64,000 bases of DNA, taken from assembly GCF_009914755.1 (NCBI RefSeq), contig NC_060947.1, one strand, 5' to 3'. The translations under genes and the position numbers were made by a program. Position 1 is the first letter of the stretch. The number at the start of each line of letters is the position of its first letter. The notes under the pieces were generated by a model. It saw nothing but the letters and a program-made list of their open reading frames with translations, ran no database searches and was not told the origin of the DNA. This DNA is from the human T2T-CHM13v2.0 reference genome, Homo sapiens. Shown here piece by piece: positions 1,682 through 45,200 of the stretch.

Positions 1682-2794
1682 ATGGGTGACAGAAGATTCA
1701 TTGACTTCCAATTCCAAGATTCAAATTCAAGCCTCAGACCCAGGTTGGGCAATGCTACTGCCAATAATACTTGCATTGTTGATGATTCCTTCAAGTATAA
1801 TCTCAATGGTGCTGTCTACAGTGTTGTATTCATCTTGGGTCTGATAACCAACAGTGTCTCTCTGTTTGTCTTCTGTTTCCGCATGAAAATGAGAAGTGAG
1901 ACTGCTATTTTTATCACCAATCTAGCTGTCTCTGATTTGCTTTTTGTCTGTACACTACCTTTTAAAATATTTTACAACTTCAACCGCCACTGGCCTTTTG
2001 GTGACACCCTCTGCAAGATCTCTGGAACTGCATTCCTTACCAACATCTATGGGAGCATGCTCTTTCTCACCTGTATTAGTGTGGATCGTTTCCTGGCCAT
2101 TGTCTATCCTTTTCGATCTCGTACTATTAGGACTAGGAGGAATTCTGCCATTGTGTGTGCTGGTGTCTGGATCCTAGTCCTCAGTGGCGGTATTTCAGCC
2201 TCTTTGTTTTCCACCACTAATGTCAACAATGCAACCACCACCTGCTTTGAAGGCTTCTCCAAACGTGTCTGGAAGACTTATTTATCCAAGATCACAATAT
2301 TTATTGAAGTTGTTGGGTTTATCATTCCTCTAATATTGAATGTCTCTTGCTCTTCTGTGGTGCTGAGAACTCTTCGCAAGCCTGCTACTCTGTCTCAAAT
2401 TGGGACCAATAAGAAAAAAGTACTGAAAATGATCACAGTACATATGGCAGTCTTTGTGGTATGCTTTGTACCCTACAACTCTGTCCTCTTCTTGTATGCC
2501 CTGGTGCGCTCCCAAGCTATTACTAATTGCTTTTTGGAAAGATTTGCAAAGATCATGTACCCAATCACCTTGTGCCTTGCAACTCTGAACTGTTGTTTTG
2601 ACCCTTTCATCTATTACTTCACCCTTGAATCCTTTCAGAAGTCCTTCTACATCAATGCCCACATCAGAATGGAGTCCCTGTTTAAGACTGAAACACCTTT
2701 GACCACAAAGCCTTCCCTTCCAGCTATTCAAGAGGAAGTGAGTGATCAAACAACAAATAATGGTGGTGAATTAATGCTAGAATCCACCTTTTAG
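1682..2794 (+). CDS. LPAR4: Lysophosphatidic acid receptor 4 (GPR23/P2Y9), class A P2Y-like GPCR, 370 aa, uninterrupted CDS
   Basis: Seven hydrophobic helices, NLAVSDLLF (TM2), DRF (TM3), CFVP (TM6), DPFIYY (TM7), N-terminal N-glycosylation sequons. [13 protein letters not shown]...MLESTF recognised as LPAR4. In-frame upstream TAG at 1628-1630 fixes the start. Confidence 0.98.
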
Positions 2795-3460
2795 GTATGA
2801 GAAATGTGTTCAGGTCCAGATATGGTTTCTCCTATAATTTTTCCTATGCTATAAACTAAAGATTTGAAGCTAATGATACTGAGAATAATGCACCAAATCC
2901 AGTCAGATACATTTGTTTGAAGGTATACTGTAGAGTTTTTATTGCTGTTTTGTTCAGTAATTATAGGTCAAATCTAATTACAACAACCAAGATGGATTGC
3001 CAAACTCTTCTGCTTGGTTGGAATTTCATTGTATCGCATTATCCAGGTGGCCAGTGGCATTTGATAATATAGAGATGACTTTGAAACTTTCAAAAAGGTA
3101 TTTCTATTCCAATGATATTTGGTAATTAGGTTGGGCCTATAAATATAGAACAAATTCAGGGATTTTTAAAAAATTGTGTTACTACTGATATATGCTAGTT
3201 TTATTTTATTTTTTTGAACTGTCATTGAGTTTATTTTAGCACAAGAATATTTTTAGCCTAACATTATTAATAAGAAATGTGTCAAATTTTTAACATTGGT
3301 AAAATATGTTATGTGCATTTTGAAAACAGAAAACAAATTGCGTTGGCATGTACGTGGGTGGGAAGAAAAAGAAAATTAACAGGATTTACACAATTATAAT
3401 CACCAGCAGTGTGAGTTTAAAAAACTTCGTTGTTTTTACACCAAATTAAAATTTTCATGT

Positions 3461-4990
3461 CAAACTTCAAAGCCAGAAAGCTGCTAAATACGTGTCTGGC
3501 AGGTAAAAGCTGGAAAATTACTTAAAACAGGAAAGTGTCAATAAAAAAACTTGAGCAACACCAACATATTTTTTCTTAAAATGTCACGTTATCTTCATTT
3601 TGGGAAACTAGGTTCTATAAAATATTTATCCTCCCTGTTATACTTTGGAGCACAGCACAGCCAGAAAGGGGCTGCATTTGTGCCCAGGTCAGGAGCAAAT
3701 TGAAAAAAAAAATAAAGTAATACAAAAAAATCAAACTATAAAGCAAAAACATTTATTAAAACCTGAATTAATCCTTTTTGGAGGGAGGAGTAGAGATATA
3801 TAACCTGAAAATACTTATTCTTTCTTATCGAATTTTGGAGCCTAATATAGCCAGGAGCTGCTGAATTTGTGCCCCTGGATTGGAAGCAAATAAAAAAAAA
3901 AAACAACACATAAACTAAACCAAACCAAAACAAAAAAACCAGAGAACCCCAAGAAAAATAAAAATAAAAAAACCTCAACAATAATTTGTAACACTTTCAT
4001 TACTATTTGTTGAGGTTCTGTAAATGTAAAAATACTATGTCATTTGCATAACATTTTGAAGCACAACGCAGCTACCAAGTGGCTAAATTCGTCTCCTGGT
4101 TAGGAACAAGTTGTGGGAAAAAAAGGTCAAAAATCAAACTGCGATAAAACAAACAAAACAAGCACAAACAAAATTTAGAACTTGCATTTTCTGAGCATCT
4201 GCGAAACTTACAAAACACTATAACATTCATATAATGCTTTGGATCAAATTGCAACTAAGAAGCTGCTAAAATGGCACCCAGTTTAAAAGGAATTAAAAAC
4301 AGTATTTTAAAATCTACAAAAAAAGAGAAAATTTTTTTATAATTTACTTAAACCGCAAAAATCTTTAAAACTCTTACTAGTTTTTAAACTAAAGTGGATA
4401 TTTAAGAATATTAGAACTTGTAAATATAACTTCTGAGCTTGAAAGATGCTACATTTGTGCTCAAGTCAGGAGCAGTGGAAATAAACCCTCGTATACACAC
4501 ATACACAGCAGCAGCAACAACAAAAACCAAAATTAAATGTTAAACCCTGAAAAACAACAAAAATATTTTAAAATGTGCATTAATCAATTTTTAAAATATT
4601 TGGATAACATGGCAATTTAAAAATGCTAAGAATTTTAAAACAAAACTTCCAGGAAAAATGTATCCTGCAAGTTGCTGAACTTGTGCCAGAAAGTGGTTAA
4701 ACAATTATAAAGCACAGAACAATAACAAAAAAGTAAAACTTCTAAAACAATAAGCAAATTTTTAAAACTCATTAACTTGTTTTTCTTTCTGATGATATGC
4801 AGACTTAAAAATACTGAGACTTTTAAGTAAAAATCTGTTAGCATAATGTAACTTTAAAAACTGTAAAATCTGTGTCTGGGTTAGGAACAAAGTGAAAAAA
4901 TGCTAAAACAATAGTAAAAACAAATTCTTAAAACTGGCATTACTTTTTCCCAATGAAAGTCCTAAAAGTAATTATGCATTATGTAGTCTT
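3461..4990 (+). repeat. Degenerate tandem array, 8 units of ~183-226 bp, within the LPAR4 3' UTR
   Basis: Core resembling GCTRMATTTGTGYCYRGGTYAGGARCAAA recurs at 3483, 3671, 3860, 4082, 4265, 4448, 4674 and 4863, each followed by an A-rich tract. Confidence 0.8.
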
Positions 4991-5259
4991 ATGAAAAGAG
5001 GCTATAGATGGAATATATAAGGCATTAGATTCAGTTAAATAAAATTAGGTTAAGATAAGTTCAGTTGTTAGATTATATGGTAAGATCAAATCAGTAATAA
5101 AAGCGTGAATAATCTTTTGTTTCTTTCAGTATTCATGTTTTTCCATTTCTTGTTAAGTATAAAATATATGTGAACATTTGTTTGTGCCCTTGCTTCTTAA
5201 CATTATAAAATTTTATGATTATGACACCAAACCATTTAATGGGATATTAACTAAGTTGA

Positions 5260-5265
5260 AATAAA
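5260..5265 (+). terminator. LPAR4: Candidate proximal polyadenylation signal AATAAA
   Basis: AATAAA followed ~15-45 nt later by a U/GU-rich tract (TTTCTTGTGTAATTTCCATGTTTAGTTTTT). Confidence 0.5.
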
Positions 5266-5506
5266 ATATATTATTAAATGTTTCTTGTGTAATTTCCATG
5301 TTTAGTTTTAATTTTTTTATATTTCACTTCTCAAATTTCCATTTTTATAGTTAATATAAATTGCTAATAATAAAACTTGTCACATTAACAATGTAACCAA
5401 GAAAATGTAAAGTATAACTAAATATAAAAGTGACTATGTTACATCGAAAGGAAAAGCAATTTTGCAGCTGTAATTGCAACTTGGATTTTAAATGTTTATT
5501 AAATGT

Positions 5507-5512
5507 AATAAA
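5507..5512 (+). terminator. LPAR4: Candidate distal polyadenylation signal AATAAA
   Basis: AATAAA preceded by TGTA elements (CFIm-type UGUA) and followed by T-rich sequence. Confidence 0.55.
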
Positions 5513-6891
5513 ATATATTTGAATTATTTAGCAGTCATACTTTGATCAATTATTCAACTTTCTTTATTTGTGGCCACCCAAAGGCATCTCTCCTTTATCT
5601 TCCCTCCATCTTTTCACAAAGGAATTATTAGACTATATTTGCTCTCAAATTAATTTCAATAACTCATTTCTGAGGCTATCTGAAGACTAATGCAGAAATG
5701 GCAAATGGCAAATTCCTGGGTAACTTTTCAGGGATCAAGATGAAAGACTAATGACCTCTTTTCCTGATTTTTCGAACTTGGGTTTGATTTATTTGGGGTT
5801 GCTAGCCAAGCTGACTTCAGATTTTAATTTCTAGGATTTGACAAAATATTCTAGGACAACAACTGGGAAGCCTGGGAAAAGATAGGGCAAACAGATCGTC
5901 TTGACAACAATAAGATGAATGCAGAGCTAAGTGGCTGGCAGATTAATACCTAGAACAGGTGATGGTCCCGAGGTAGCAAAACGGAATTTCTGGTCATCAT
6001 GCTCATGCCTCTAACTCTCGGGGAAGGCAATGTCATCATCTCAAGCACCATATGCTGTGTTAGTTCCCCATGAGATGACAGCAAACTCTGCATTTTTTGA
6101 TCATGACTAGCATGATCAGCCCTAGGCTACATTTAAAACTAGAGGAAGTTTGCCATTAATGATGCCCTAGGTCACGTCCCCAGAAACATAGGGACAGAAA
6201 CTGTAGGTTTCACATTCCTATCTGCCCTCTTCTACCTTTTGTCTTCACCCCCAATCCCCGTACCTTATATTTAATATGGTTTCCCAAACTTCATACTTTC
6301 TCCCTGTTTTACATGTGGTCTTTGTGTTCTCCAACATGTCTTCCCACCCTCTCCAGAAATATCGTTTCTTCCTGAACAAAAAGACAACACATAAAGCTCT
6401 ATCAAGACAGTGACAGGCTGAACAGATTTACATTAAGGTGTGAATGATTGATCCCCCATTTTTCTCTCCTTGACTGTTTTTAACCTTTTGGTGTTCGCAT
6501 CTTAGAAAAGGAGTCCAGTTAATTCAAATGACTGAAGGAGGGTCAGGATGGGAAGAGATGATTGTCCTGGTAAATGGTAAATCATCTGTTAAGCCTCAGC
6601 CTCTCTTGCCTTGCAGTGGAGCTTCTGCACTGCAGGCTTTCTTGTCCTGCTCCCTTGAGCTCACTTTGTGTTCTGTTGATTCCAAACCATATACCACCTG
6701 TTTCTAGACAGCCCTCTTTTCCGAAACCACCTGAAGTGACTGGGAGCCTGTATTCTCATTTCATATAGGCATGGATTATTTCCCTCAAATGTCTCCTGAT
6801 TCTGGTGGATTTGGTGAAATTAGGTAAAATAAGAAGCAGATTGTTTATATTTTATGAACAAGGAAGCAAAAGAGCGCAGGCTACTGAGTCA

Positions 6892-42222: not shown

Positions 42223-45200
42223 TAAACTGATGACAAATTAATGATGATGACAACCTAATCATCATGCCCAGCCTAAACTGATGACAACTTAAATGCTGAT
42301 TGCATGAACACACAAGCAAAAATAAAACTGATAAAACCTCTATATTTTAAATTTATCACTCTGCTTTTTAACATTTTGTGGTTTCTATTTATATCTTATT
42401 TTACTGTCTAAAGGTTGAGAAGTTGTAGTTAGTTATTATTTTTGATTAGTTTATCTTTTACTTTTTCTGCTTAGAGAAGAGCAGTTTAGACATCATAATT
42501 ACAGTGTTATAATACTCTGTGTTTTTCAGTGTACTTACCAGTGAGTTTTTAAACTTCAGATGATTTATTATTGCTCATTATCATCCTTTTCTCTCTGAAG
42601 ATTTTCCTTTAGCATTTCTTCTAGGACAGTTTTGATGTTGAGAAAATCTCTCAGCTTTGTTTTTCTGGGAAGCCTTTTTTGTCCTTTATGTTTGAAGTGT
42701 ATTTTCACTGGATACACTCTTCAAGGGAAAATGGCTTTTTTCCCTTCAGCATTATAAATCTGTCATTCCTCTCTCTCCCGCCCTGTAAGGTTTCCACTGA
42801 TATTACTGCTGTCAGTCATATTGGAGCTCAATTGTATGTTATTTGTTTCTTTTCTCTTGCTGCTTTTAGGATCCTTTCTTTATCTTTGACCTTTGGAAGT
42901 TTGATTATTAAATGCCTTGATGTGGTCTTATTTGGCTTAAAGCTGCTTTGAGTTCTATAACCTTCTTGTGCTTCAATGTTGATATTTTTATCTGGATTTA
43001 AGTAGTTCAAGTTAGTTAGTTATGACTTTGAGTAAATTTTTTACCTTTATCTTTTTCTCTTTCTTCTCTTTAAGGTCAATAGCTCTCAGATTTTCCCTTT
43101 TGAGACTATTTTTCTAAGTCCTCTAGGTGTTTCTGCTATATTATTTTTGCTTTTGTCTCCTCTGACTGTGTATTTTCAAATAGCCTGTTTTCAAGCTCAT
43201 AAATTCTTTCTTCTGCTTGATTAATTCTTCTTTAAGTCACTATGATGCATTCTTCAGTGTGTCAATTACATGTTTCAACTCCAGAATTCCTGCATATTTT
43301 TAATTACTTCAATCTCTTTGTTAAATTTATCTGATAAATTCTGATTTTTTTCTCTGTGTTATCTTTAATTTTGTTGAGTTTTCTCAATGCAGCTATTTTG
43401 AATTCCCTGTCTGAAAGATCACATGTCTCTATCTCTCCAGGATTGGTTACTGGTGACTTATTTAGTTCATTTGGCAAGGTCATGTTTTTCTGGATGGTTT
43501 TGATGCTTGTGGACATTAGTTGGTGTCTGGGCATTGAAGAGTTAGGTATTTATTGTAGTCTTCATAGTCAGGGCTTGTTTGTACCCTTCCTCTATGAAAA
43601 GGATTTCCAGGCATTCAAAAGGACTTTGGTATTGTGATCTAAGCTGCATCTCCATCAGGGAGCACCCCAAGCCCAGTAAGGCTGTAGTTCTTGCAGACTT
43701 GTTGAAGTACCCTCTTGGTGGTCTTGAATAAGATCCAGAAAAATTCTGGAGATTACTAGGCAGGGACTCTTGTTTTCTTCCCTTGCTTTCTCCCAAATAA
43801 ATGGAGTACCTCTGTGTTGAGACACCTGGATATGGGAGTTAGGTGACACAAGCACCCTTGTGACCACCACCACTGAAACTGTGCTGGGTCAGACCTGTAG
43901 CGAGCTCTGTACTGGGTCTTGCCCAAGGCCTACTGTAACCACAACCTGGTTACCACATATGTTTGCTTAAGATCCTAGGCCTCTGCAATCAGCAGGGGGC
44001 AAAGCCATCCAGGCTTGTTTCCTTCCCTTTGGGGCTGTGAGTTCTTCCTGGCCTTGGATGGTTCTAGAAATGTCATTTGGGAGCCAGGGACCAGAGTAGA
44101 ATACCTTAAAAAGTCTACTTGGTGCTCTACTGTACTGCTGCTGAACTGAACCTTATGAAACTCTCATTTGTTCTCGAGGAATTTAGACTAGAATGCCTCT
44201 AATGTCTCCTCCAGCTCTGTCATAGAGATTAAGTTTGTCCCACTCTTCCCACCTCTTTCCACAAGCAGAGGAGCCTCACTTCATGGCCACCACCATGACA
44301 CGGCCATGCGGAGTACTGCCAATGTTCACTTAATGCTCAAGGTCTCTTAAGTCAGTTTGTTGTGAATGCTGCTTGGTCTTAAGAGTCACCCGTCAGGGTG
44401 GTGGGCTCCCCTCTGGCCCAGGTTAGGTCCAGAAATGCTGTCAAATACCCAAGGCCTGGAATTGTGATCCCAAGAGGCTGCTTGGTGTTCTACCCCACTG
44501 TGCCCAAGCTGGTATTTCATTTTTTATTCTTATGAAAATGCTTTATTTTTTTTGTAGATAGCTGTTAAATTTGGTGTCCCTGCAAGAGGAGCAACTGGTG
44601 GAGGCTTCTATATGGCCACTTTGCTCTGCCCACAGCTAGATTCACTCTTTGATGAGGCAGGAAGGGAATAAGTTAACTCAGGATTTGCTAATTGCCTCAG
44701 TAATAGAGATTTGTTATTGACCTTTTATTGCCTATTGTGTTTGTTGTTGACAGTTTTATTTTTCTCTGTTCTTATTTTCACATGTAGGTAAAATAAATGT
44801 TTTACTTTGTTTTTCAAAACAAGCAAACCCAACCACTTTGAGGCAGTGTGAGATTTTGGAAAAAAAATTTGACCAGGATGCAGAGATATAATCTTTAGTC
44901 TTGGGTTGTATGTTCTTACAAAACCCTCATCCATTATCTGAGAAATTTAGACTAGAATACTTCTAATGTCTCCTCCAGCTCTGTCACTGTGAAGCTAGTC
45001 CAATGACTCTTTTATTTTTTTCCCTTCTTCATTTTACTTACAATTTTCTGATTATTTTGATCTGTCAGCCCATGGTTCTGGGCACGGAAAAAAACAGATG
45101 CACTGCCTTGGATAGGATGGATAAAGTGGAGTGTCTTTAGGTGGCTCTAGTAAAATAAAAATAAATAATAGAATTGAAGTACAAAGAGTAACATATTTAT

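What the first reader, a model, noticed from the sequence alone, without database searches (positions are those of the whole stretch)
3461..4990. Cryptic eight-unit ~190-bp tandem array in the LPAR4 3' UTR
Seen: what looks like low-complexity A-rich UTR is periodic. A core recurs at 3483 (GCTAAATACGTGTCTGGCAGG), 3671 (GCTGCATTTGTGCCCAGGTCAGGAGCAAA), 3860 (GCTGAATTTGTGCCCCTGGATTGGAAGCAAA), 4082 (GCTAAATTCGTCTCCTGGTTAGGAACAAG), 4265 (GCTAAAATGGCACCCAG), 4448 (GCTACATTTGTGCTCAAGTCAGGAGCAG), 4674 (GCTGAACTTGTGCCAGAAAGTGG) and 4863 (GTAAAATCTGTGTCTGGGTTAGGAACAAA). Spacings are 188, 189, 222, 183, 183, 226 and 189. Several cores are preceded by TTTGGAGC-like and AGCCAGAAAG-like blocks, and followed by an A-rich tract and a second weak block (ACAAATTTTTAAAA..CATTA..AAAATACT). 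It matches no interspersed repeat I recognise. Inference: an ancient tandem amplification whose cores stayed recognisable while linkers drifted, as expected for a multivalent cis-regulatory module (RNA-binding-protein or localisation array, conceptually like NORAD or Xist repeats) in a GPCR mRNA. I do not know of a description of it, but cannot search the literature.
Basis: partly seen in the sequence, partly recalled or inferred. Interest (0 to 1): 0.82.

Follow-up and report, generated by a model that had tools for sequence, protein, structure and literature searches.

The report
Decayed tandem repeat in LPAR4 3' UTR
The LPAR4 3' untranslated region really does contain eight very old, badly eroded head-to-tail copies of a ~190-base unit, but nothing found here shows that they are more than a relic of an ancient duplication burst.

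Summary
TRF misses the array. Three results show it: a 6-mer lag peak at 181-190 bp (z 4.1 against 200 shuffles), a MAFFT alignment, and leave-one-out profile searches that recover 7 of 8 left-out units in register (E 2e-16 to 4e-4; U5 only E 0.26).

No further units lie in the flanks or in the 64-kb window. BLAST-level and pattern searches find no copies elsewhere in the human genome.

The unit tree is a star with terminal branches of about 0.4 changes per site, meaning one old burst followed by long independent decay.

The functional inference has no internal support:
- Core-versus-linker heterogeneity lies within uniform-rate simulations.
- Core CpGs have decayed.
- There is no consensus RNA structure and no Rfam or tRNA match.
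- No recognised protein-binding or microRNA motif recurs in most units.

Orthologues, Dfam and CLIP data could not be consulted. Most likely this is a neutral relic. A constrained RNA platform is not excluded.

The parts
3443..3630 (+). Unit 1 (188 bp); core GCT at 3483; the TTTGGAGC block is missing or deleted
   Evidence: Alignment A1. Left-out search: E 4.4e-6, 3446-3584.
3631..3819 (+). Unit 2 (189 bp); the best-preserved unit, with its core at 3644-3700
   Evidence: Left-out search E 2.1e-16. 65.9 bits with core model R1.
3820..4041 (+). Unit 3 (222 bp); its linker is lengthened by an A/C-rich tract (about 3884-3987). The other annotated transcripts end inside this tract, at 3924.
   Evidence: Left-out search E 1.4e-11. 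The A/C-rich tract is the only part of the array with matches elsewhere in the genome. AATAAA at 3889. The 3924 end comes from the hub annotation.
4042..4224 (+). Unit 4 (183 bp); it keeps both core CpGs (4067, 4090)
   Evidence: Left-out search E 1.2e-12. CpG columns.
4225..4407 (+). Unit 5 (183 bp); the most eroded unit
   Evidence: Left-out search only E 0.26, though in register (4231-4326). Longest terminal branch, 0.75.
4408..4633 (+). Unit 6 (226 bp); its linker is lengthened by an ACACA/CAGCAG/A-rich tract
   Evidence: Left-out search E 4.8e-10.
4634..4822 (+). Unit 7 (189 bp); the 3' half of its core is partly deleted
   Evidence: Left-out search E 1.7e-9.
4823..5010 (+). Unit 8 (188 bp); the last unit, whose tail merges into unique UTR
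   Evidence: Left-out search E 3.6e-4. No unit follows it.
2795..5526 (+). LPAR4 3' UTR of the selected transcript. The array fills 1568 of its 2732 bases. The flanks 2795-3442 and 5011-5526 are single-copy.
   Evidence: Hub annotation. Flanks are unique in the genome. AATAAA at 5507, 19 nt before the annotated end.

Best explanation
This is a locus-specific, very old tandem amplification. A unit of about 190 bp was copied head to tail to eight copies in one burst, probably by unequal crossing-over or replication slippage. The unit consists of a mixed-composition core of about 65 nt, an A-rich tract, an AAATTTTTAAAAC..GCATTA block and an AAAATACT block.

Since the burst the copies have decayed independently at roughly the neutral rate, each differing from the ancestral unit at about a quarter of its sites. 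The array survives because it sits inside the terminal exon of LPAR4, where large insertions and deletions are poorly tolerated. Nothing suggests that each core is a maintained binding site.

Its present effect on the mRNA is most likely generic. It contributes 1.6 kb of A/U-rich 3' UTR. Its A-rich linkers carry AATAAA hexamers, and one of them (3889) may account for the shorter annotated 3' end at 3924, either as a real alternative poly(A) site or as oligo-dT internal priming.

Shown: the array, its limits, its star-like deep divergence, the absence of other copies at BLAST level, and the absence of a shared structure or motif. Inferred: the mechanism of amplification, the age (before the radiation of placental mammals), and neutrality.
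For: Array and limits.

Burst followed by independent decay: the IQ-TREE tree has 0 of 5 inner branches supported and terminal branches of 0.28-0.75 changes per site, median 0.4. The pairwise identity matrix shows no neighbour or higher-order pattern.

Compatible with a uniform rate: star-tree simulations with 25-27% substituted sites per lineage plus 3-6% indel events reproduce the mean identity (0.52-0.54 against 0.539 observed). They reach the observed spread of window identity in 11-22 of 150 runs, and the observed best window in 41-60 of 150.

CpG decay inside the core: alignment columns 60-61 read CG in U1 and U4 and TG in 5 others. Columns 36-37 read CG in U4 and TG or CA in 4 others. 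CpG observed/expected is 0.26, the same as in the flanking UTR (0.27, 0.31).

No consensus RNA structure: 0 pairs. Single-unit folds give z from -1.66 to +0.37 for 5 sense and 3 antisense cores.

No Rfam family: the only match is miR-430 at 24.4 bits, against a gathering score of 47.3. No tRNA-like gene.

Not interspersed: the whole array and the U2+U3 queries hit only themselves plus 4 places matching the A/C-rich tract. Of 15 genome matches to a 20-place core motif, 2 are in the array. The other 13 match the unit profile only across the motif itself.

No long ORFs: 5 ORFs of 40 aa or more, longest 69 aa.
Against: The core and block C are somewhat better preserved than the tail (58-63% against 45%). 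The heterogeneity sits in the upper 7-15% of the simulations, so weak constraint on some blocks is not excluded.

The simulations are crude: a consensus serves as ancestor, there is a single substitution class, and the indel model is ad hoc.

All eight units keep a length within about 12% of one another after very long decay, and no transposon has landed in 1.6 kb. This could reflect selection on the UTR.

TAAA and TAAA pairs are mildly enriched over shuffles (48 against 38.9, 22 of 1000 shuffles reach it; pairs 29 against 19.5, 31 of 1000; 14 motifs tested, uncorrected).

Neutrality was inferred from one genome only. No orthologue, polymorphism or CLIP data were available.
Confidence: 0.6

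Rival explanations
1. The array is a constrained multivalent RNA platform. Each unit offers the same binding site or sites to an RNA-binding protein, so that the array tunes the stability, translation, localisation or condensate partitioning of LPAR4 mRNA.
For: The array lies within the mature 3' UTR (hub annotation; AATAAA at 5507). The core and block C are the best-preserved blocks. Heterogeneity is in the upper 7-15% of neutral simulations. Unit length is roughly kept. TAAA pairs, which the NORAD/SAM68 paper gives as the SAM68 preference (passages of PMC5828396), are mildly enriched.
Against: No tested motif is present in most units: PRE in 1 of 8, TAGG in 3 of 8, GT.AGG in 4 of 8, GCTGCT in 3 of 8, GCATT in 4 of 8, and RBFOX and QKI motifs in 0 of 8. 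There are 0 consensus base pairs. Core CpGs decayed in parallel. The best window is no better conserved than in 27-40% of neutral simulations. The TAAA enrichment would not survive correction for 14 tests and fits plain A/T-richness.
Confidence: 0.15
2. The unit derives from an ancient mobile element, either an A-tailed SINE-like retroposon or the internal tandem region of a transposon, that was amplified locally. A repeat library such as Dfam would then name it.
For: If the unit is phased differently, it reads as a mixed-composition body of about 130 nt followed by a sense-strand A-rich tail of about 60 nt. Transposable elements are reported to seed many human tandem repeats (title and abstract of PMC3389668 in the listing).
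Against: There are no other copies of the core in the genome at BLAST level. The 13 motif hits elsewhere do not extend. There is no tRNA-like head and no Rfam match. Elsewhere in the window the core model scores at most 8.1 bits.
Confidence: 0.15
3. The array works at the DNA level, as periodic transcription-factor or insulator sites, or nucleosome-length phasing at about 190 bp, acting on LPAR4 or on X-linked chromatin.
For: The period is close to a nucleosome repeat length. U2 carries AGGTCA and a CCAG..GGGGC stretch (the motif resemblances are recalled, not scored).
Against: These strings occur in one or two units only. RefSeq lists no functional element here (hub annotation). No test was possible with these tools.
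Confidence: 0.04
4. It is a chance resemblance within low-complexity A-rich sequence, with no real repeat.
For: TRF reports nothing with a period near 190. U5 alone is not significant (E 0.26).
Against: Seven of 8 left-out units are recovered in register at E of 3.6e-4 or better, while nothing else in 64 kb scores better than E about 0.5. The lag peak has z 4.1. The cores have mixed composition (A 33, C 18, G 24, T 25%).
Confidence: 0.01

Closest known systems
Decayed minisatellite/satellite-type tandem repeats (the 'old tandem repeats' that tools such as ULTRA aim to label)
   Same: Head-to-tail copies of one unit whose pattern has been blurred by substitutions and indels. [quoted passage not shown] TRF misses this one.
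   Different: The unit is long (about 190 bp), the copy number is low (8), and the array lies wholly inside the 3' UTR of a protein-coding gene. Pairwise identity of about 54% is at the edge of what is recognisable.
NORAD repeat units (NRUs)
   Same: Several tandem units a few hundred nucleotides long in a cytoplasmic RNA, each a mosaic of short blocks separated by A/U-rich sequence. NORAD has 12 units of about 300 nt (passages of PMC5828396).
   Different: NRUs carry Pumilio elements, two conserved hairpins and conserved UAAA pairs, and they are conserved in mammals. Here the PRE occurs in 1 of 8 units, there are no consensus pairs, and conservation is untested.
Xist tandem repeat blocks (A-F)
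   Same: Local tandem expansion within a transcript on the X chromosome. A review presents it as a route by which an RNA gains function (title and abstract of PMC6316617 in the listing).
   Different: Xist repeats are binding platforms with experimental support, and some have defined core hairpins (recalled). No structure, motif or binding evidence exists for the LPAR4 array.
A-tailed SINE-like retroposons
   Same: A mixed-composition body followed by a sense-strand A-rich tract.
   Different: No tRNA- or 7SL-like head. No dispersed copies were found. The copies lie strictly head to tail.

Membership tests
Tandem repeat array (decayed minisatellite/satellite type) | Two or more head-to-tail copies of one unit at a near-constant period | tested here: met
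   Eight units of 183-226 bp, contiguous over 3443-5010. The lag peak at 181-190 has z 4.1. Seven of 8 units are recovered in leave-one-out searches.
Tandem repeat array (decayed minisatellite/satellite type) | Copies confined to the locus, not an interspersed family | tested here: inconclusive
   BLAST-level genome searches hit only the locus itself and A/C-rich tracts. The 13 motif hits elsewhere do not extend. A profile search of the whole genome or of Dfam was not possible.
NORAD-like repeat units | Pumilio response element (UGUANAUA) in most units | tested here: not met
   One of 8 units (U6). In total 1 occurrence against 0.2 expected; 165 of 1000 shuffles reach it.
NORAD-like repeat units | Conserved hairpins within each unit | tested here: not met
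   RNAalifold on the eight cores gives 0 pairs. Single-unit folds give z from -1.66 to +0.37.
NORAD-like repeat units | Units and motifs conserved across mammals | not testable with these tools
   No non-human vertebrate sequence is held.
microRNA sponge / repeated seed-site array (CDR1as-like) | The same seed match in most units | tested here: not met
   GCTGCT (the miR-15/16 6-mer; the seed is recalled) occurs in 3 of 8 units. No other 6-7-mer was seen in register in most units in alignment A1 (by eye).
SINE-type retroposon | A pol III-type (tRNA, 7SL or 5S) head | tested here: not met
   ARAGORN finds 0 genes in 3300-5200. The Rfam E-value scan gives only a sub-threshold miR-430 hit.
SINE-type retroposon | Many dispersed copies in the genome | tested here: inconclusive
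   None was found at BLAST level. Very old families would escape this search.

The most novel reading that the evidence does not exclude
The eight units are a selectively maintained, mammal-wide multivalent platform in the LPAR4 mRNA. This would be an mRNA-embedded analogue of NORAD repeat units: an A/U-rich-binding protein (for example a STAR-family UAAA binder) or a still unknown factor binds once per unit, and the array sets the receptor mRNA's stability, its translation site or its condensate partitioning.
Probability: 0.12. Interest if true: 0.65.

Novelty: new member of a known kind. Interest (0 to 1): 0.27.

Why it matters
If the array is a relic, the main lesson concerns annotation. 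A 1.6-kb block making up more than half of a GPCR 3' UTR is a tandem repeat that standard tools miss. Motif counts, microRNA-site predictions and 'conserved element' calls in this UTR are therefore not independent of one another. The A-rich linkers may also explain a shorter annotated 3' end.

If the array were instead constrained across mammals, it would be a rare example of a NORAD-like repeat platform inside a protein-coding mRNA, and it would give a handle on post-transcriptional control of LPA signalling. That outcome is testable with public alignments and CLIP data that were not available here.

Tried and rejected
- TRF at minimum score 30 found no period near 190.
- Pairwise global alignments with free end gaps were unstable, with many aligned stretches of only 2-20 columns. 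I dropped them and used identities from the multiple alignment instead (then).
- Higher-order repeat:
  - Lag bins 401-410 (z 2.9) and 591-600 (z 3.7) stood out.
  - GT.AGG occurs only in even units and GCTGCT only in odd units.
  - Against this, the identity matrix shows no parity or lag pattern, and the tree has no supported inner branch.
  - I therefore claim no higher-order structure.
- RNA structure, Rfam and tRNA: nothing.
- Coding potential: nothing periodic; the longest ORF is 69 aa.
- A weak recurrent minus-strand hit at about 44716-44875 (E 0.5-1) shows no recognisable core when read. I treated it as noise.
- Genome search with the core model was not accepted for this genome. I used the allowed DNA and pattern modes instead.
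  - The 20-place motif gave 15 hits, 2 of them in the array.
  - My own estimate for equal base frequencies is about 12.
  - The tool's reversed-pattern control gave 1, but that control contains a CpG and so is biased low (my inference).
  - Four hits belong to one unrelated interspersed family, 80-84% identical over about 780-830 bp.
- Literature:
  - 'LPAR4' + 'UTR' + 'tandem repeat' gave 0 papers.
  - 'GPR23' + 'untranslated region' + 'repeat' gave 1 paper, a G-alpha-12/13 review judged irrelevant from its title.
  - 'LPAR4' + 'UTR' + 'luciferase' gave 21 papers, 15 listed. None concerns the array by title or abstract start.
  - In one search, none of the 12 papers listed contains 'LPAR4'.
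  - I therefore found no description in the searched library. Subscription journals and genome-browser tracks were not searchable.

Full report
**Observation.**
- Tandem Repeats Finder at its lowest allowed score reports six rows in 2500-6500, all of period 10 or less, and nothing near 190. The array is cryptic to the standard tool.
- The repeat finder groups the cores into direct-repeat families. D1 has 5 copies of 33 nt and D4 has 5 copies of 17 nt. D7 has 3 copies of the TTTGGAGC block. Spacings are near 190, 220, 366 and 411.
- In 3441-5000, non-trivial 6-mer matches at lag 181-190 number 19, against 5.8 +/- 3.2 in 200 dinucleotide-preserving shuffles (z 4.1). Bins 401-410 (z 2.9) and 591-600 (z 3.7) are also raised.

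**Anatomy.** Cutting at a fixed offset before each core gives eight contiguous units: 3443-3630, 3631-3819, 3820-4041, 4042-4224, 4225-4407, 4408-4633, 4634-4822 and 4823-5010. MAFFT aligns them in 270 columns with 52% mean column identity and 19 invariant columns (A1). Four blocks recur in the units:
- a core of about 65 nt of mixed composition (..CTTTGGAGC.., AGCCAGAAAG, GCTNAATTTGTGCCC, GGTTAGGAACAAA; A 33, C 18, G 24, T 25%);
- an A-rich tract (60% A);
- an AAATTTTTAAAAC..GCATTA block;
- a weaker tail ending in AAAAATACT.

The longer U3 and U6 owe their extra length to A/C-rich or ACACA/CAGCAG tracts in the linker.

**Significance without circularity.** A profile built from all eight units finds them by construction (E 1.7e-35 to 8.3e-20; next best in 64 kb E 1.5). 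I therefore built a profile from seven units and searched the whole window for the eighth.
- Seven of 8 left-out units are found in register: U2 2.1e-16, U4 1.2e-12, U3 1.4e-11, U6 4.8e-10, U7 1.7e-9, U1 4.4e-6 and U8 3.6e-4.
- U5 reaches only E 0.26, although it is in register.
- The best match outside the array in any of the eight searches is E about 0.5.
- A sequence-only covariance model of the 83-nt core region scores the eight units at 44.8-65.9 bits, by construction. Nothing else in the window exceeds 8.1 bits.
- The flanks 2795-3442 and 5011-5900 hold no further unit (best E 0.54 in 1.5 kb).

The array is real, with seven solid units and one badly eroded unit.

**Where else does the unit occur?** The window's genome can be searched by DNA or by pattern.
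- U2+U3 and the whole array hit themselves, four places matching only the A/C-rich tract (query 442-545 of the array, that is window 3884-3987), and one weak self-inverted AT-rich match (E 0.64).
- The UTR flanks are single-copy.
- A profile search of the genome was not accepted.
- A 20-place degenerate core motif gives 15 matches, 2 of them in the array.
  - My estimate for equal base frequencies is about 12.
  - The tool's reversed control gave 1, but that control contains a CpG and so is biased low (my inference).
  - I fetched the 13 other places with 400-base flanks. They match the unit profile only across the motif itself (profile positions about 29-68).
  - Four of them are copies of one unrelated interspersed family, 80-84% identical over about 780-830 bp.

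At the sensitivity available, the unit is locus-specific. A very old dispersed family (25-35% diverged) would escape these searches.

**History.** An IQ-TREE tree of the eight units has 5 inner branches, none supported. Terminal branches measure 0.28-0.75 changes per site, median 0.4.
- Pairwise identities from A1 are flat, 45-62% over all columns. There is no neighbour effect and no odd/even or four-unit pattern.
- GT.AGG occurs only in units 2, 4, 6 and 8, and GCTGCT only in units 1, 3 and 5.
- I read this as one burst of amplification followed by long independent decay. I claim no higher-order repeat.
- A terminal divergence of about 0.3-0.4 changes per site is, from my recollection of human ancestral repeats such as MIR and L2, at or beyond the age of the placental radiation. 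This dating is an inference and was not tested here.

- Mean pairwise identity is 58.3% in the core, 62.6% in block C, 52.3% in the A-rich tract (where chance identity is high) and 45.2% in the tail.
- I simulated eight lineages from the alignment's majority consensus under one substitution rate (25-27% of sites) and 3-6% indel events. I realigned each set with MAFFT and computed the same 25-column window statistics.
  - The simulations reproduce the mean identity (0.52-0.54 against 0.539).
  - The observed spread (SD 0.066, range 0.265) is reached in 11-22 of 150 and 16-32 of 150 runs respectively, depending on the parameters.
  - The observed best window (0.651) is reached in 41-60 of 150 runs.
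- The cores are therefore not better preserved than uniform decay predicts. At most, the tail is a little worse. The model is crude, so this is an absence of evidence. It does not prove neutrality.
- Independently, two core dinucleotide columns look like methyl-CpG decay. Columns 60-61 read CG in U1 and U4 and TG in five units. This is the very 'TTTGTG' that makes the cores look alike. Columns 36-37 read CG in U4 and TG or CA in four units.
- CpG observed/expected in the array (0.26, 9 CpGs) equals that of the flanking UTR (0.27 and 0.31).

**RNA-level features.**
- RNAalifold on the eight cores predicts no consensus pair.
- Five sense and three antisense cores folded alone give z-scores from -1.66 to +0.37 against 200 shuffles each.
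- The Rfam scan at E up to 1 returns one sub-threshold match (miR-430, 24.4 bits against 47.3, at 3966-4023). ARAGORN finds nothing.
- Only 5 ORFs of 40 aa or more overlap the array, the longest being 69 aa.
- I counted 14 recalled motifs against 1000 dinucleotide shuffles.
  - The Pumilio element occurs in 1 of 8 units. RBFOX and QKI motifs occur in none. AUUUA (6 against 5.5) and AATAAA (6 against 6.2) are at expectation.
  - GT.AGG (4 units), GCTGCT (3 units), GCATT (4 units) and AAATACT (3 units) exceed the shuffles. They are simply inherited pieces of the ancestral unit, each kept in half of the units or fewer.
  - TAAA (48 against 38.9; 22 of 1000 shuffles reach it) and TAAA pairs (29 against 19.5; 31 of 1000) are mildly enriched, uncorrected for 14 tests.

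**Comparison with NORAD.** Passages of PMC5828396 describe NORAD's 12 units of about 300 nt. Each carries Pumilio elements, two hairpins, a U-rich stretch and conserved UAAA pairs bound by SAM68, with phyloP support. The LPAR4 array shares the tandem mosaic architecture but fails the two defining features I could test, the PRE and the hairpins.

**Transcript context.** By the hub annotation the selected transcript runs to 5526, and an AATAAA at 5507 fits that end. The array is therefore in the mature mRNA and makes up 1568 of the 2732 UTR bases. Other annotated transcripts end at 3924. That position lies in U3's A-rich tract, 29 nt after an AATAAA hexamer at 3889 and next to genomic A-runs. 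It could be a true alternative poly(A) site created by the repeat's A-rich linker, or oligo-dT internal priming. I could not tell which.

**Literature.** I found no description of this array in the searched library.
- 'LPAR4' + 'UTR' + 'tandem repeat' gave 0 papers.
- 'GPR23' + 'untranslated region' + 'repeat' gave 1 unrelated review, judged by title.
- 'LPAR4' + 'UTR' + 'luciferase' gave 21 papers, 15 listed, none about the array by title or abstract start.
- A looser repeat-term search listed no paper containing 'LPAR4' among its 12 rows.
- Passages of the ULTRA paper (PMC11580682) state that old, mutated tandem repeats are often hard or impossible to annotate. This fits TRF's miss.

**Verdict.** The step to a maintained multivalent regulatory module is unsupported by every internal test. 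It remains open only because the decisive data could not be reached: orthologous UTRs, base-wise conservation, Dfam, CLIP and polymorphism. My probabilities are about 0.6 for a neutral relic of a locus-specific amplification, 0.15 for a constrained RNA platform and 0.15 for derivation from an unrecognised ancient mobile element. The last is compatible with the relic reading as to present function. DNA-level function or chance takes the small remainder.

Noticed in passing
window 3884-3987: The A/C-rich tract in unit 3 (AAAAC-type, TRF period 5 at 3895-3935) is the only part of the array with matches elsewhere in the genome. There are 4 places, 75-89% identical over 47-89 bases. This is probably independent low-complexity similarity and not homology.
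   Followed up: partly
window 3924 (annotated end of other LPAR4 transcripts): The shorter annotated 3' end falls inside a genomic A-rich run, 29 nt after an AATAAA hexamer (3889). It could be a real alternative poly(A) site or oligo-dT internal priming.
   Followed up: no
units 2, 4, 6, 8 versus units 1, 3, 5: GT.AGG (GTCAGG or GTTAGG, loosely like a 5' splice site) occurs only in even units, and GCTGCT only in odd units. This hints at a dimeric precursor, but overall identities and the tree do not support it.
   Followed up: partly
L010, L011, L014, L017 (G000 C4:67004220, C5:105617764, C11:132416515, C23:63165354): These four motif hits are copies of one interspersed repeat family, 80-84% identical over about 780-830 bp. 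The family happens to contain a 20-mer resembling the array core, but the similarity does not extend. I did not name the family.
   Followed up: partly
window 44716-44875 (-): A weak match to the unit and core profiles recurs here (E 0.2-1, 4-8 bits) in several searches. No core is recognisable by eye, so it is probably noise in A-rich sequence.
   Followed up: partly
window 3966-4023 (+): A sub-threshold Rfam match to miR-430 (24.4 bits, gathering score 47.3, E 0.22) lies in the linker of unit 3. I treated it as chance.
   Followed up: no
window 4561-4601: A short AT-rich stretch in unit 6 matches its own reverse complement (86% over 41 nt, E 0.64 in the genome search), making it a weak palindrome.
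   Followed up: no
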